DNA of 15,564 nucleotides from Pseudomonadota bacterium (GTDB lineage: Bacteria > Myxococcota > JACRCW01 > JAFGSX01), in NCBI GenBank assembly GCA_043821645.1, contig JBDRCO010000032.1, forward strand, positions 1 to 15,564, given 5' to 3'. A model generated the notes under the pieces. It saw only the letters and a list, made by a program, of their open reading frames with translations, was not told the DNA's origin and made no database searches. A program made the translations under genes and the position numbers. Shown piece by piece: positions 2,251 to 4,860 of the stretch (its first letter is position 1; each line of letters starts with the position of its first letter).

Positions 2251-2398
2251 GTCAGGCTCCTGTGGTGATGCGGAGGCGTGGGCTCGCTGGAGCTCACGCC
2301 GGGCCACCGTGAGATCCTGGATATAGAGCCTGCGCATGAAGCGTGCACTGCGGGGGCATACATGCGCACTCTGGCGCGCGTGCTGCTGTGCCAGAAGG

Positions 2399-2427
2399 AG
2401 GGGACTGGCACTTACTATTACATTTTA
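2399..2427 (+). repeat. Left inverted repeat AGGGGACTGGCACTTACTATTACATTTTA
   Basis: Read directly; one mismatch (T vs A at repeat position 18) relative to the right copy. Confidence 0.95.
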
Positions 2428-2524
2428 TTTTCTTTATTTTACATGGCGATGGCTGCAGACAGGTCCTCCGCCAAGCCCGAGCCCCGTCCGGCGTCTGGTG
2501 CGGTGCTATGCGAACTGGAGAGGG

Positions 2525-3433
2525 CTACTGCAGCTCGCGCAGCGCGATCAAATTGCGGATCCAGTCTGCGAGCTCGGCATCTTGTGGGCGGCGCCGGTTG
2601 ACGTCGTGAATGGCCTTGGCCACCGCTCCTGTCGTCATGGCCAGTGCCTGCGCCACCTCGGCCTGGCTGACCTTGCCCTCGTTGAAGAGCCACCAGGCCG
2701 CCACCAGGCGTTCACGATTGCCGCGGCGACCGCGGCGAGGGGTGCGCAGGTCTCCCGGGCGGGCGCCCGTCACGGTCAGCACCTGCTCGAGACGAGGCGC
2801 CAGGTCGACCGCAGGCACGGGACGCATGGGCGCCGCCAGGGCGGTGTGGGGCGCGCGCCACAGGGTCTGCTCGAAATCTTCCGGCAGGGCACTGCGCTTG
2901 AGCTGGAGTGCCCGCATGTGAGCCCGGTAGCCCGCATGGCCACCGAACAGTGAGAGCAACTCGTCGCAGCGCATCCAGTCTGGTGGCGAGTGCGTCCCGG
3001 CGTAGTACTCGTGGCTGGTCCAACCCGCGTCGCCAGGTTCATGGACGAGGCGGGCCCGCACCGGATTCAAGTGGACGTAGCTCAGGAGTGTTCGCCAGTA
3101 AACGTCTTTCTCGACCACGCGGTTGCGGTATCGACCCTTGAACACCGGACCGTCCCAGTGGAAGCGCTGATTGAGGAAACGAGCGAAGTCACCGTCGAGA
3201 TAGCGCACGGCGTCGCCGAGCCGGCCGCGCTGGGCGCGAAGCAGCAGATGGTAGTGGTTGGGCATCAGCGCGAAGCCATGTACCTCGACGCCGAAGCGCC
3301 TGGGCAGCTGCCGCAACAGGTCGATGAAGCAGCCGCAGCTCACCTCGTCGAGGAAGATGGGTTGGCGGCGGGCTCCCCGATTCATGACGTGGTGACGGGC
3401 ACCCGGATAATCGATGCGCGCGGTGCGTGGCAT
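2525..3433 (-). CDS. REP-associated-type tyrosine transposase (Y1_Tnp HUH domain) with C-terminal helix-turn-helix, 302 aa
   Basis: N-terminus MPRTARIDYPGARHHVMNRG.RRQPIF; HUH motif in LMPNHYHLLL (HYH at 3248-3256); GPVFKGRY; catalytic Tyr candidate in SYVHLNPVRA (3077-3079); WTS motif; C-terminal SQAEVAQALAMTTGAVAKAI HTH. An alternative GTG start lies at 3439. Confidence 0.92.
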   Translation of the reverse strand: MPRTARIDYPGARHHVMNRGARRQPIFLDEVSCGCFIDLLRQLPRRFGVEVHGFALMPNHYHLLLRAQRGRLGDAVRYLDGDFARFLNQRFHWDGPVFKGRYRNRVVEKDVYWRTLLSYVHLNPVRARLVHEPGDAGWTSHEYYAGTHSPPDWMRCDELLSLFGGHAGYRAHMRALQLKRSALPEDFEQTLWRAPHTALAAPMRPVPAVDLAPRLEQVLTVTGARPGDLRTPRRGRRGNRERLVAAWWLFNEGKVSQAEVAQALAMTTGAVAKAIHDVNRRRPQDAELADWIRNLIALRELQ

Positions 3434-3440
3434 GGGCACC

Positions 3441-3468
3441 TTTGTAGCAAGAATGCGCGATCAGTAAA
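3441..3468 (-). promoter_or_regulatory. Candidate sigma70-type promoter for the transposase (TTTACT-N16-TACAAA with extended -10 TG)
   Basis: Minus strand reads TTTACT gatcgcgcattcttgc TACAAA ggtgccc ATG. Both hexamers are imperfect matches. Confidence 0.35.
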
Positions 3469-3493
3469 ATGTAATTGTAAGTGCCAGTCCCCT
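3465..3493 (-). repeat. Right inverted repeat (minus strand AGGGGACTGGCACTTACAATTACATTTTA)
   Basis: Plus strand reads TAAAATGTAATTGTAAGTGCCAGTCCCCT; 31 nt separate it from the transposase ATG. Confidence 0.95.
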
Positions 3494-3521: not shown

Positions 3522-3908
3522 TCAGGCTGGATTCTTTTTCCGCTGCTCGGCCCGGGCCAGAAACTCCTGCCAGTCTTTCTGCTGCAGTTCGGCGATGCGG
3601 CGGTGGATGTCGTCATGGCTGAAGCCGAGTTTCTGCTGCATCACCTGCCAGCCGATCTCGATGGCGTCTTGCCACTTGCCCTCGTCGGCGCGCGGGTTGA
3701 GATTGCCCGGGAACAGCGGCTTGCCCGCATCGTCGAGCATGAAGTCCGGCAGTTCGTTGTGGCGCGACAGGGGCACCAGGGCGAGCATGTGAAGGTGCTC
3801 TTCCAGCTCGTCATCCTGCTGGTCCTCGTACAGTGCACGCGCACGGTCGACGACCTTGTCCTGGGCGTACCAGCGTTCGATGGCTTCGCGTTCCCTGTCG
3901 CTCAACAT
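3522..3908 (-). CDS. Hypothetical protein, 128 aa, charged and probably alpha-helical
   Basis: GGAGG precedes ATG 3908 (MLSDREREAIERWYAQDKVV...RKKNPA); host-like codon use. It is the C-terminal part of the 434-aa ORF-track call, whose upstream part is largely antisense to tag. Confidence 0.8.
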   Translation of the reverse strand: MLSDREREAIERWYAQDKVVDRARALYEDQQDDELEEHLHMLALVPLSRHNELPDFMLDDAGKPLFPGNLNPRADEGKWQDAIEIGWQVMQQKLGFSHDDIHRRIAELQQKDWQEFLARAEQRKKNPA

Positions 3909-4139
3909 GCGTCCTCCGCATCGCCACCGCCGACGTTTGCGGCGCGGCGACGATGAAACGATGGGAGAACGCAGGGCGTCCGATGTCAAGTGCTGGGGCT
4001 CCGTATTGGCTGCTCGAGGCAAAGGAACAAGGGTGGGTGGCGCCCGACGTCTTGCCCTCCTTGCTCCTGGCTCTGGCCAGCGATAGGTGGACAGCGCAGA
4101 GATGTGCGACCTGCCGCAGCGCTGCGCCCGAGGGAGGTC

Positions 4140-4778
4140 ATGGCCGCTTCGTCCCCCGCCCTGATCACGGGCGCCGATGGGATCCGACGCTGCTTCTGGG
4201 CGGTGTCCGCGCCCGAGTACGCGGCCTACCACGACGACGAGTGGGGCCAGCCCACCACAGACGACACGCGCCTGTTCGAGAAGATCTGCCTCGAGGGCTT
4301 TCAGGCCGGCCTGAGCTGGCTCACCATATTGCGCAAGCGCGAGGCTTTTCGCGAAGCTTTCGCGGGTTTCGACGTCGAGAAGGTGGCGAAGTTTGGTGCG
4401 CGGGACGTGCAGCGCTTGCTGGGCAATGCGGGCATCGTGCGCCACCGCGGCAAGATAGAGAGCACCATCCACAACGCGCAGCGTGCCCTGGACCTGAGAG
4501 CCGAGTGTGGCTCCCTGGCCGCCTACTTCTGGCGCTTCGAGCCTGACGCGGCGACGCGGCCGAAGCGCATCACCCGCGCCAAGCTGATGACCATGGCGAC
4601 CAGCCCCGAGTCCATCGCCCTGTCCAAGGACCTCAAGCGGCGCGGCTGGACCTTTGTCGGTCCGACCACGGTCTACGCCTTCATGCAAGCCATGGGGCTG
4701 GTGAACGATCACCTCGAGGGCTGTGCGGCGCGCGCGCGGGTCGAGGCCGCCCGGCGGCGCCTGAAGCGACCGCGCTGA
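4140..4778 (+). CDS. tag: DNA-3-methyladenine glycosylase I
   Basis: RCFW, YHDDEWG, LFEKICLEGFQAGLSWLTILRKR, GIVRHRGKI and FVGPTTVYAFMQAMGLVNDHLEGC (Zn-ligand Cys/His pattern). GGGAGG precedes ATG 4140. Confidence 0.97.
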   Translation: MAASSPALITGADGIRRCFWAVSAPEYAAYHDDEWGQPTTDDTRLFEKICLEGFQAGLSWLTILRKREAFREAFAGFDVEKVAKFGARDVQRLLGNAGIVRHRGKIESTIHNAQRALDLRAECGSLAAYFWRFEPDAATRPKRITRAKLMTMATSPESIALSKDLKRRGWTFVGPTTVYAFMQAMGLVNDHLEGCAARARVEAARRRLKRPR

Positions 4779-4860
4779 GGCCGGGCGCCGGATCGCGGTG
4801 GCGCGCGCGGATTGGCTGCGCGACACTGCACCGCGGTGCCTTCTTGCGGGAGTTCACGCC

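What the first reader, a model, noticed from the sequence alone, without database searches (positions are those of the whole stretch)
2399..3493. HUH (RAYT-like) transposase with HTH tail enclosed by 29-bp terminal inverted repeats: candidate unusual mobile, invertible or domesticated system
Seen: AGGGGACTGGCACTTACWATTACATTTTA occurs in inverted orientation at 2399-2427 and 3465-3493 (28/29 identical), enclosing only an intact 302-aa Y1 transposase. The flanks (...CCAGAAGG | GTGGAAAT...) show no direct duplication, there is no tnpB, and the repeats are not themselves palindromic. Established: IS200/IS605 elements have subterminal hairpins rather than TIRs, classic RAYTs are flanked by palindromic REPs, and TIRs are the hallmark of DDE elements. 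Inference: the extra HTH may let this HUH enzyme recognise dsDNA inverted ends, giving a TIR-bounded HUH transposon, a self-inverting cassette, or a domesticated gene that spreads non-palindromic repeats. Host-like codon use suggests long residence. I cannot confirm from sequence alone that the family is undescribed.
Basis: partly seen in the sequence, partly recalled or inferred. Interest (0 to 1): 0.85.

Follow-up and report, generated by a model that had tools for sequence, protein, structure and literature searches.

The report
Tyrosine transposase gene with inverted-repeat family
This is a single-copy gene for a DNA-cutting tyrosine (HUH) enzyme boxed in by two inverted 29-base repeats that also occur as hairpin-forming pairs elsewhere in the genome, an arrangement already described in 2013 as a "TIRtron", so it is a new example of a known but little-studied kind.

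Summary
A 29-nt inverted repeat (28/29) at 2399-2427 and 3465-3493 encloses one intact 302-aa Y1/HUH gene.

The claim that this is undescribed does not hold.
- Di Nocera et al. 2013 (PMC3733652) named RAYT-like genes flanked by long terminal inverted repeats "TIRtrons", and their enzymes "TIRYT". Many of those repeats begin GGGGWSAS.
- Quentin et al. 2018 (PMC6006769) equate TIRYT with TnpA-Y1 subclass 2.1, which has a C-terminal DnaA-like or HTH domain.

Every feature I could test fits.
- HUH and Tyr are conserved.
- The N-terminal half folds like E. coli RAYT and the tail like DnaA domain IV.
- The arm begins AGGGGACTG.
- 54 of 72 homologue loci from many phyla have flanking inverted repeats.

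In this roughly 7-Mb Myxococcota-like genome the arm occurs 23 times:
- the pair around the gene;
- nine intergenic doublets of 135-138 bp;
- three solo arms.

Most likely the enzyme acts in trans on hairpin-forming doublets, as in RAYT/REPIN systems. That mechanism is inferred, not shown.

One oddity remains. The arms are about 90% identical, but the AT-rich interiors of the doublets are unrelated in sequence while fixed in length.

This scan has reported the same kind of element in at least 39 other genomes.

The parts
2399..2427 (+). Left terminal inverted repeat (arm), on the 3' side of the minus-strand gene. It begins AGGGGACTG.
   Evidence: The same arm occurs 23 times in the genome. Conservation is sharp over about 28 nt.
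2428..2524 (-). 97-nt non-coding spacer between the stop codon and the left arm. It is longer than in most relatives, where the arm overlaps the gene's 3' end (median -7 nt).
2525..3433 (-). TIRYT gene: 302 aa from ATG 3433 (304 aa from GTG 3439). HUH is H62-Y63-H64 and the catalytic Tyr is Y121, in P0001 numbering.
3056..3400 (-). Y1/HUH catalytic core, approximately residues 14-128.
   Evidence: Pfam Y1_Tnp covers residues 16-123. The fold matches E. coli RAYT 4er8_A and the IS608/ISDra2 TnpA structures. H62, H64 and Y121 are invariant in 46 sequences.
2531..2800 (-). C-terminal helical DNA-binding domain, approximately residues 214-303, resembling DnaA domain IV. I inferred the range from the model's helices; the search did not print it.
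   Evidence: Helices. Foldseek hits 3pvp_B (TM 0.81) and 1j1v_A (TM 0.85). HTH Pfam families in relatives.
3434..3464 (-). 31-nt leader between the right arm and the ATG. The consensus scan found no promoter here.
3465..3493 (-). Right terminal inverted repeat (arm), upstream of the gene.

Best explanation
This is a TIRtron. A single-copy gene for a TIR-associated tyrosine transposase (TIRYT, TnpA-Y1 subclass 2.1-like) sits in an ordinary chromosomal intergenic site, between an aldo/keto reductase gene on one side and a small unknown ORF and a 3-methyladenine glycosylase gene on the other. It is bracketed by 28-29-nt inverted arms.

The same arm forms a small genomic repeat family: nine intergenic doublets of 135-138 bp and three solo arms.

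Proposed mechanism, inferred by analogy with IS608/ISDra2 TnpA and the E. coli RAYT:
1. When DNA is single-stranded, for example on the lagging-strand template, the two arms of a doublet pair into a 28-bp stem.
2. The HUH/Tyr core cuts and rejoins single-stranded DNA at the foot of that stem.
3. The DnaA-domain-IV-like tail holds the double-stranded stem.
4. Doublets are thereby excised, copied or inserted in trans, without target duplication.

The gene-bearing unit would form such a panhandle rarely because its loop is 1037 nt. That fits its single copy.

Shown here: the anatomy, the fold, the conserved catalytic residues, the repeat family, one recent doublet duplication with unrelated flanks, and the family-wide link between gene and TIRs.

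Inferred only: the cleavage sites, strand specificity, the role of the HTH tail, and whether the system is still active.
For: Protein:
- Pfam Y1_Tnp at E 5e-8. The best NCBIfam hit is REP_Tyr_transpos.
- H62, H64 and Y121 are invariant in 46 aligned relatives.
- The model has pLDDT 92.
- Its N-terminal half matches E. coli RAYT 4er8_A (E 1.2e-6, TM 0.73), then the ISDra2/IS608 TnpA structures.
- Its tail matches DnaA domain IV: 3pvp_B (TM 0.81) and 1j1v_A (TM 0.85).

Repeats in this genome:
- The arms match 28/29 and are not expected by chance.
- There are 23 arms at 6 or fewer mismatches, and nine doublets, all intergenic.
- Reversed-pattern controls gave 0 matches.
- Doublets fold as ssDNA hairpins with z of -6.9 and -8.3.
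- Two doublets on contig C5 are 99% identical with unrelated flanks. The doublet as a unit has therefore been copied.

Across the family:
- 54 of 72 homologue loci with adequate flanks have inverted repeats of 17 or more matches, against 5 of 72 in a direct-repeat control.
- 35 of those 54 carry GGGGWS.
- 14 of 20 loci from phylum relatives have such repeats.
- In genome G024, four 138-bp doublets and one 125-bp doublet have a conserved interior that keeps the first 12 and last 13 codons of a TIRYT. They are deletion derivatives of a TIRtron bounded by the same arms.

Literature: TIRtron/TIRYT and subclass 2.1 are described with exactly these features.

Copy number: the gene is single copy here.
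Against: - No biochemical work on any TIRYT turned up. Only 2 works in the library hold the word, so the mechanism rests on analogy.
- The arm alone has no hairpin, unlike the substrates of every solved Y1 enzyme.
- The protein scores below NCBIfam's RAYT cut-off (63.8 against 80 bits).
- The arm matches GGGGWSAS at 7 of 8 positions only.
- Eight of the nine doublet interiors are unrelated to one another. Simple recent copying by the enzyme does not explain this.
- No empty site or polymorphism could be examined.
- 18 of 72 homologue loci showed no inverted repeat with my 9-nt-seed method.
Confidence: 0.8

Rival explanations
1. The whole 1095-bp unit is an autonomous IS-like element that still transposes itself. 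The doublets are its MITEs, meaning non-autonomous deletion derivatives. On this reading the system is a selfish element, not a domesticated one.
For: - The G024 doublets retain the 5' and 3' ends of a TIRYT gene between the same arms, so TIR-to-TIR units have behaved as elements there.
- G031 carries at least 6 full-length relatives, each with its own TIR variant.
- The family's distribution is patchy: 5 of 40 related genomes.
Against: - There is one copy only in this 7.07-Mb, 94.7%-complete genome.
- The nearest protein in 5.8 billion is 52% identical.
- GC3 is host-like.
- The only pair of identical gene-bearing copies seen (G031:C87, 1010 of 1010) is a tandem segmental duplication that includes 454 bp of upstream DNA. 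It is not a transposition.
- The G000 doublets show no trace of gene ends (best blastx E 0.022 against an 11-protein set).
Confidence: 0.25
2. The system is fully domesticated and the arms are binding sites. The protein, through its DnaA-like tail, binds pairs of arms held about 108 bp apart, centre to centre. It acts as an architectural, regulatory or replication-linked factor. Transposition is no longer the function.
For: - The arms are about 88-91% identical, while the sequence between and outside them is unconserved.
- Doublet length is held to 135-138 bp in nine of nine doublets despite unrelated interiors.
- Interiors are AT-rich: GC 0.41, against 0.62 just outside.
- This pattern points to constraint acting in place on each copy.
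Against: - The catalytic HUH and Tyr residues are invariant. That argues that cutting and joining is retained.
- Doublets sit in convergent, divergent and co-directional gaps, with no consistent relation to genes.
- One doublet was recently copied to a new site.
Confidence: 0.1
3. The arms belong to a MITE mobilised by a DDE transposase. Two copies, or one that was split, happened to capture a Y1 gene.
For: TIRs of about 28 nt with a short interior are typical of DDE-dependent MITEs.
Against: - The link between gene and TIRs is family-wide, across many phyla: 54 of 72 loci, with a shared GGGGWS outer end.
- No target-site duplication flanks the window unit or the nine doublets.
- No other gene lies inside the unit.
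Confidence: 0.03
4. The unit is an invertible cassette (phase switch) that flips between the two arms.
For: There are only two facts in its favour: the repeats are inverted, and they enclose a gene together with its upstream region.
Against: - No solved or studied Y1/HUH enzyme that I know of inverts double-stranded DNA (from recall, not from a call).
- The interior holds only the enzyme gene, so flipping would switch nothing else.
- The assembly shows one orientation.
- Doublets with 77-80-nt interiors have nothing obvious to switch.
Confidence: 0.03

Closest known systems
TIRtron / TIRYT (Di Nocera, De Gregorio & Rocco 2013, BMC Genomics 14:522, PMC3733652; passages read)
   Same: - A RAYT-like Y1 gene is flanked at short distance by long, non-REP terminal inverted repeats.
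- The outer end is of the GGGGWSAS type; here it reads GGGGACTG.
- The arm family is 'moderately abundant' and occurs as singles, dimers and clusters.
- The HUH motif and catalytic Tyr are present.
   Different: - It is a new host lineage: an uncultured Myxococcota-like genome, according to earlier notes and to the names of homologues.
- One position of the 8-mer motif differs.
- The 3' arm lies 97 nt from the stop codon instead of overlapping it.
- The doublets have a fixed length of 135-138 bp with unrelated AT-rich interiors. I did not see that detail in the passages read; the figures and supplements of that paper were not seen.
TnpA-Y1 subclass 2.1 (Quentin, Siguier, Chandler & Fichant 2018, BMC Genomics 19:475, PMC6006769; abstract and passages read)
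   Same: A Y1 core plus a C-terminal HTH extension of Bac_DnaA_C/HTH_23/HTH_28 type. The authors equate this subclass with TIRYT and give the TIR consensus GGGG[AT][CG]A[CG].
   Different: - I could not run their subclass HMMs, so the assignment is by architecture only.
- They report finding no REP-like sequences near these genes. Here the flanking arms do form a genomic repeat family.
RAYT-REPIN systems (Nunvar et al. 2010, recalled only; Bertels & Rainey 2011, PMC3116915, listing and abstract only; E. coli TnpA-REP structure 4er8)
   Same: - A single-copy Y1 gene is flanked by inverted copies of a repeat.
- That repeat is dispersed in intergenic DNA as hairpin-forming doublets.
- The closest solved structure is the E. 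coli RAYT.
- The system probably works the same way.
   Different: - The arms are not palindromic and carry no GTAG tag (direct reading of the arm).
- The protein is about twice as long, with a DnaA-like tail.
- It scores below the NCBIfam RAYT cut-off.
- There are tens of copies, not hundreds.
- Doublet interiors are not conserved.
IS200/IS605 family (IS608, ISDra2 TnpA)
   Same: The HUH/Y1 catalytic fold, and no target duplication.
   Different: - There are no subterminal hairpins and no tnpB.
- It has TIRs instead.
- NCBIfam transpos_IS200 scores 13.6 bits against a cut-off of 55.
- The gene is single copy.

Membership tests
TIRtron / TIRYT (Di Nocera 2013) | The encoded protein is a RAYT-like Y1 enzyme with an HUH motif and a catalytic tyrosine. 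| tested here: met
   Y1_Tnp at E 5e-8. H62, H64 and Y121 are invariant in 46 sequences. The fold matches 4er8_A.
TIRtron / TIRYT (Di Nocera 2013) | The gene is flanked by long terminal inverted repeats that are not REP hairpins. | tested here: met
   29-nt arms matching 28/29. An arm alone has a minimum free energy of 0 kcal/mol.
TIRtron / TIRYT (Di Nocera 2013) | A GGGGWSAS motif in the TIR. The paper reports it for some TIRs, not all. | tested here: inconclusive
   The arm reads GGGGACTG, matching 7 of 8 positions; the GGGGWS part is met. Among homologue loci with inverted repeats, 35 of 54 have GGGGWS and 16 of 54 have the full 8-mer.
TIRtron / TIRYT (Di Nocera 2013) | The arms may form a genomic family of single, dimeric or grouped copies. 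| tested here: met
   23 arms: 9 doublets, 3 solo arms and the pair around the gene. They cluster on contigs C29, C5 and C118.
TnpA-Y1 subclass 2.1 (Quentin 2018) | A C-terminal HTH extension of Bac_DnaA_C / HTH_23 / HTH_28 type. | tested here: met
   Fold matches to DnaA domain IV at TM 0.81-0.85. HTH_23 in 10 of 46 relatives and HTH_28 in 2 of 46. The window protein itself has no significant Pfam HTH hit.
TnpA-Y1 subclass 2.1 (Quentin 2018) | Placement in the authors' MCL/HMM subclass and tree. | not testable with these tools
   Their subclass profiles and reference sequences are not on hand.
Classical RAYT / REP (REPtron) | The flanking repeats are short palindromes (REPs), typically GTAG-tagged. 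| tested here: not met
   The arm does not fold, and neither strand of the arm contains GTAG.
Classical RAYT / REP (REPtron) | The protein reaches the NCBIfam REP_Tyr_transpos equivalog cut-off. | tested here: not met
   63.8 bits against a cut-off of 80.
Classical RAYT / REP (REPtron) | A single-copy gene whose flanking repeat is dispersed as hairpin-forming doublets (REPIN-like). | tested here: met
   One copy. Nine doublets fold as hairpins.
IS200/IS605 | Subterminal hairpins at asymmetric ends, a protein that reaches the transpos_IS200 cut-off, and usually several copies. | tested here: not met
   13.6 bits against a cut-off of 55. The ends are symmetric TIRs. The gene is single copy.

The most novel reading that the evidence does not exclude
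The doublets are not decaying MITEs. They are maintained in place.

Each roughly 28-nt arm is kept at about 90% identity, with sharp boundaries. The 77-80-nt interior may take any sequence, provided it stays AT-rich and keeps its length.

This would mean one of two things:
- The TIRYT continually rewrites or homogenises individual arms, so the arm, not the doublet, is the unit it copies.
- The host selects arm pairs at fixed spacing as easily extruded hairpin or cruciform sites, bound by the DnaA-like tail.

Either would be a persistent, domesticated HUH system with a cellular role.
Probability: 0.15. Interest if true: 0.6.

Novelty: new member of a known kind. Interest (0 to 1): 0.27.

Why it matters
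TIRYTs are common: 1162 relatives of this protein at E <= 0.001, and inverted repeats around homologues from many phyla. Yet I found no experimental work on them; only two works in the searched library hold the word.

This locus adds a clean, single-copy Myxococcota-like example with a small, fully listed repeat family. Together with the deletion-derived MITEs in a relative, it shows that the TIR-to-TIR unit behaves as an element.

It gives concrete substrates, namely the 28-nt arm and the 135-138-nt doublets. With them one could test how an HUH enzyme that normally reads hairpins deals with inverted ends, and what the DnaA-like tail does.

It does not change what is known in kind.

Tried and rejected
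1. Empty-site test. The two neighbour proteins (aldo/keto reductase and 3-methyladenine glycosylase) had no match in the three closest held genomes, G001-G003, at E <= 1e-30 and <= 1e-20. No orthologous site could be compared.

2. The same arm in relatives. An 18-nt core with 1 mismatch was found in 0 of 40 other genomes.

3. A shared 434-aa ORF next to an arm, both in the window and on C112, looked like a conserved partner. The two are unrelated (blastp E > 1), and the window ORF is largely spurious.

4. Twin identical TIRtrons in G031:C87 looked like proof that the whole unit transposes. They are a tandem segmental duplication that includes 454 bp of upstream DNA.

5. Traces of gene ends inside the G000 doublets: none credible (best E 0.022).

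6. A promoter in or next to the upstream arm: none on the gene's strand by the consensus scan. There is only an outward-facing -10-like hexamer at the inner end of the left arm.

7. The idea that single arms inserted at a measured distance into local DNA. It is disfavoured because interior GC is 0.41, against 0.62 immediately outside.

8. No metagenome scan for the arm was made. The nearest protein relative anywhere is 52% identical, so conspecific DNA seemed unlikely to be on record.

9. The supplements and figures of the two key papers were not read. Figure 9 and Additional file 5 of PMC3733652 list the described TIRYTs and could show whether a Myxococcota member, or fixed-length dimers, are already listed.
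Full report
**Observation**

The window is a whole 15,564-bp contig (C32) of a 7.07-Mb, 140-contig, 94.7%-complete genome. A 29-nt inverted repeat lies at 2399-2427 (+) and 3465-3493 (-). It matches at 28 of 29 positions, with 1037 nt between the arms. The degenerate 29-mer matches only these two places in the window, and none of 200 dinucleotide shuffles gave two matches.

The only credible gene between the arms is on the minus strand, at 2525-3439 from GTG. The ATG at 3433 gives 302 aa, identical to database entry P0002. The flanks show no direct duplication. A single arm has no secondary structure as ssDNA: its minimum free energy is 0, and all 200 shuffles fold at least as well.

**The protein**

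- Pfam gives Y1_Tnp (E 5.3e-8, residues 16-123) and no significant HTH; the best is KORA at E 0.15.
- NCBIfam's best model is REP_Tyr_transpos, at 63.8 bits and below its 80-bit cut-off. transpos_IS200 scores 13.6 bits against 55.
- In an alignment with 45 relatives of 39-52% identity, H62 and H64 (the HUH motif), Y121, H123, N125 and P126 (the Y-x-H-x-N-P helix) are invariant.
- An AlphaFold2 model from that alignment has mean pLDDT 92.2.
- Foldseek against the PDB puts the E. coli REP-associated tyrosine transposase first (4er8_A, E 1.2e-6, TM on target 0.73). The ISDra2, IS200 and IS608 transposases follow.
- The C-terminal helices match DnaA domain IV: 3pvp_B (TM 0.81, rmsd 1.9 over 89 columns) and 1j1v_A (TM 0.85).
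- Among the 46 aligned proteins, 45 match Y1_Tnp, 10 HTH_23, 8 MarR_2, 5 Sigma70_r4 and 2 HTH_28 at E <= 0.01.

The 'HUH enzyme with an HTH tail' is thus confirmed, at the level of fold.

**The repeats in the genome**

With up to 3 mismatches the 29-mer occurs 19 times in the genome, and the reversed-pattern control 0 times. With up to 6 mismatches it occurs 23 times:
- the pair around the gene;
- nine inverted doublets on contigs C5 (two), C9, C29 (three), C53, C112 and C118;
- three solo arms, at C5:49788, C29:11227 and C118:16826.

The two solo arms on C29 and C118 have no recognisable partner within 1.5 kb.

The doublets measure 138, 138, 136, 137, 138, 135, 137, 137 and 135 bp. All lie between genes, in convergent, divergent and co-directional gaps alike. 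Two that were folded as ssDNA form long hairpins, with z of -6.9 and -8.3 against shuffles. All nine fold this way with RNA parameters.

The gene itself is single copy. The only other Y1 hits in the genome are three paralogues of 25-31% identity. These belong to a different type and have no flanking inverted repeats.

**The family**

The protein has 1162 relatives at E <= 0.001 in the large protein collection. The closest is 52% identical. Source names include 'REP element-mobilizing transposase RayT' and 'transposase [Myxococcales bacterium]'.

Among 40 related genomes, 5 hold a homologue at E <= 1e-20. In the 20 loci fetched from these, 14 have the gene bracketed by inverted repeats of 20 or more matching bases. 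The common form is GGGGTC, then ten variable bases, then a TTGACA-like inner part. The other six showed none with a 10-nt seed.

In a second, named sample of 80 loci from many phyla (Thermodesulfobacteriota, Verrucomicrobiota, Acidobacteriota, Planctomycetota, Actinomycetota, Omnitrophota and others), 72 had at least 100 nt on both sides. Of those 72:
- 54 have inverted repeats of 17 or more matches. A direct-repeat control gave 5, all of them palindromic arms.
- 35 of the 54 carry GGGGWS, and 16 carry the full GGGGWSAS.
- The rate is 46 of 56 for open frames of 270 aa or more, and 8 of 16 for shorter ones.

So the flanking repeat is a property of the family, not of this locus.

**Evidence that the TIR-to-TIR unit is an element**

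In genome G024 one arm type forms four 138-bp doublets and one 125-bp doublet, with conserved interiors and unrelated flanks. Those interiors still encode the first 12 and the last 13 residues of a TIRYT like that of G031:C54. blastx places them at positions 1-12 and 305-317 of 317, with E of 2e-3 and 3.6e-4 against an 11-protein set. They are therefore internal-deletion derivatives of a gene-bearing unit.

In G000 the two doublets on C5 are 99% identical, while their flanks differ from the first base outside the arms. That is one recent copying event of a doublet.

A counter-example had to be discounted. Two 100%-identical gene-bearing units in G031:C87 (1010 of 1010) are a tandem segmental duplication that also repeats 454 bp of upstream DNA. 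They are not a transposition.

**What is known**

Di Nocera et al. 2013 (PMC3733652; passages read) describe RAYT-like genes 'flanked by TIRs'. They name the units TIRtrons and the enzymes TIRYTs. They note a shared GGGGWSAS motif, and report 'moderately abundant families of TIRs', many 'organized as REPs in dimers or clusters'.

Quentin et al. 2018 (PMC6006769; abstract and passages read) place 20 of the 26 described TIRYTs in TnpA-Y1 subclass 2.1. Its C-terminal extension resembles Bac_DnaA_C, HTH_23 or HTH_28. They state that the subclass 'probably corresponds to the TIRYT'.

The window's arm begins (A)GGGGACTG, which is 7 of 8 positions of the motif. Every defining feature I could test is met, except that one motif position and the formal subclass placement, for which the authors' profiles are not on hand. 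By contrast, the features that define classical REP/RAYT (palindromic, GTAG-tagged repeats; the NCBIfam cut-off) and IS200/IS605 are not met.

A full-text search for 'TIRYT' returns only these two works, and I found no experiment on any member. Earlier reports of this scan reached the same classification for look-alike loci in at least 39 other genomes. None concerns this protein.

**How it most likely works**

The catalytic residues are conserved and the closest solved structures are ssDNA-hairpin-processing Y1 enzymes. I therefore take the enzyme to cut and rejoin single-stranded DNA.

A single arm cannot fold, so the structured substrate must be the two arms paired. That is easy for a 137-nt doublet and improbable across the 1037-nt loop of the gene-bearing unit. 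This fits nine doublets against one gene copy. The DnaA-domain-IV-like tail is a double-strand binder and could hold the 28-bp stem. All of this is inference.

The behaviour resembles RAYT/REPIN systems even though membership of that family fails.

**What remains odd**

- Conservation across the 23 arms is sharp. Information content is high over about 28 nt and falls to background within three bases on either side. Mean pairwise identity is 0.88, or 0.91 over positions 2-28.
- The interiors, in contrast, are unrelated. In 36 pairwise comparisons against shuffles the median z is 0.7. Only 3 pairs exceed 3: the C5 twins, and weak similarity among C29:14201, C29:17030 and C112.
- Yet the interiors keep their length (77-80 nt) and are AT-rich: GC 0.41, against 0.62 in the 60 nt outside and 0.672 genome-wide.
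- The low GC argues against the idea that interiors are captured local DNA.

Old copies whose arms, length and composition, but not interior sequence, are under constraint in place is the simplest reading. Whether that constraint comes from the enzyme (arm homogenisation) or from the host (a function for arm pairs) cannot be told from one genome. This is the basis of the novel reading, which I rate at 0.15.

**Context and limits**

The neighbours are ordinary chromosomal genes: glutathione peroxidase, aldo/keto reductase, the unit itself, a small ORF without a family, 3-methyladenine glycosylase, GH92, pirin, CrcB, GNAT, an alpha/beta hydrolase, GH57 and an alpha-amylase-family gene.

No empty site could be examined, because the three closest held genomes lack detectable orthologues of the neighbours. 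No reads were available to test inversion or circles. The figures and supplements of the two key papers were not seen.

**Verdict**

This is a new member of the TIRtron/TIRYT kind, with a modest open question about how its arms are maintained.

Noticed in passing
G000 contigs C3:61257-61661, C63:72706-73110, C128:7446-7826 (loci L021-L023): Three paralogous Y1/HUH genes, 25-31% identical to the window protein and about 300 aa long, with a different, mutually conserved Cys/Arg-rich C-terminal region. They have no flanking inverted repeats. They may belong to one of the non-REP subclasses of Quentin et al. 2018.
   Followed up: partly
window 2389-2410: The left arm's first bases pair with the host flank (TGCCAG ... 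CTGGCA) into a 6-bp hairpin (ssDNA -5.1 kcal/mol, z -2.9). This is not seen at other copies, so it is probably local chance or a trace of the insertion site.
   Followed up: partly
window 2422-2449 (minus strand): A promoter-like match whose -10-like hexamer is the inner end of the arm, reading outward. Every arm would carry this outward-facing hexamer. No promoter-like site was found between the upstream arm and the gene's start.
   Followed up: no
window 3522-4826 (minus strand): The 434-aa ORF next to the right arm is mostly an artefact: it overlaps the 3-methyladenine glycosylase gene (3990-4778, +) on the opposite strand. Only its last roughly 126 codons (3522-3902) look like a small real gene, with no Pfam family.
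   Followed up: partly
G000 C29:11227-21906; C5:45614-49982; C118:16798-18281: Arms cluster. There are seven arms (three doublets and a solo) within 10.7 kb on C29, five within 4.4 kb on C5 and three within 1.5 kb on C118. This suggests local hopping or a preferred region.
   Followed up: no
L045-L049 (G024), L058 (G031:C199): 138-bp MITE-like doublets in another Myxococcota-phylum genome keep the first 12 and last 13 codons of a TIRYT gene. A 178-bp doublet in G031 keeps a longer 3' coding piece. This amounts to a deletion series running from TIRtron to doublet.
   Followed up: yes
L036/L038 (G031:C87:23980-26454): Two 1010-bp TIRtrons, identical at 1010 of 1010 positions and 454 bp apart. 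They turn out to be a tandem segmental duplication (the spacer repeats the upstream DNA), or possibly an assembly artefact.
   Followed up: yes
L050 (G024:C14) and L054 (G031:C65); L025 and L029: Two different genera share an almost identical arm type. It surrounds their TIRYT genes and also forms doublets of 102 and 96 bp with unrelated interiors. This is the same 'conserved arms, free interior' pattern as in the window's genome.
   Followed up: partly
flanks of doublets, G000 and G024/G031: The DNA just outside many arms is purine-rich on the left and pyrimidine-rich on the right. It often repeats a partial GGGGA-type block (in G024/G031...GGGGAAT|GGGGTC... and ...GACCCC|ATT...). The symmetric unit may therefore extend a few bases beyond the conserved arm, or the insertion site may itself be symmetric.
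   Followed up: no
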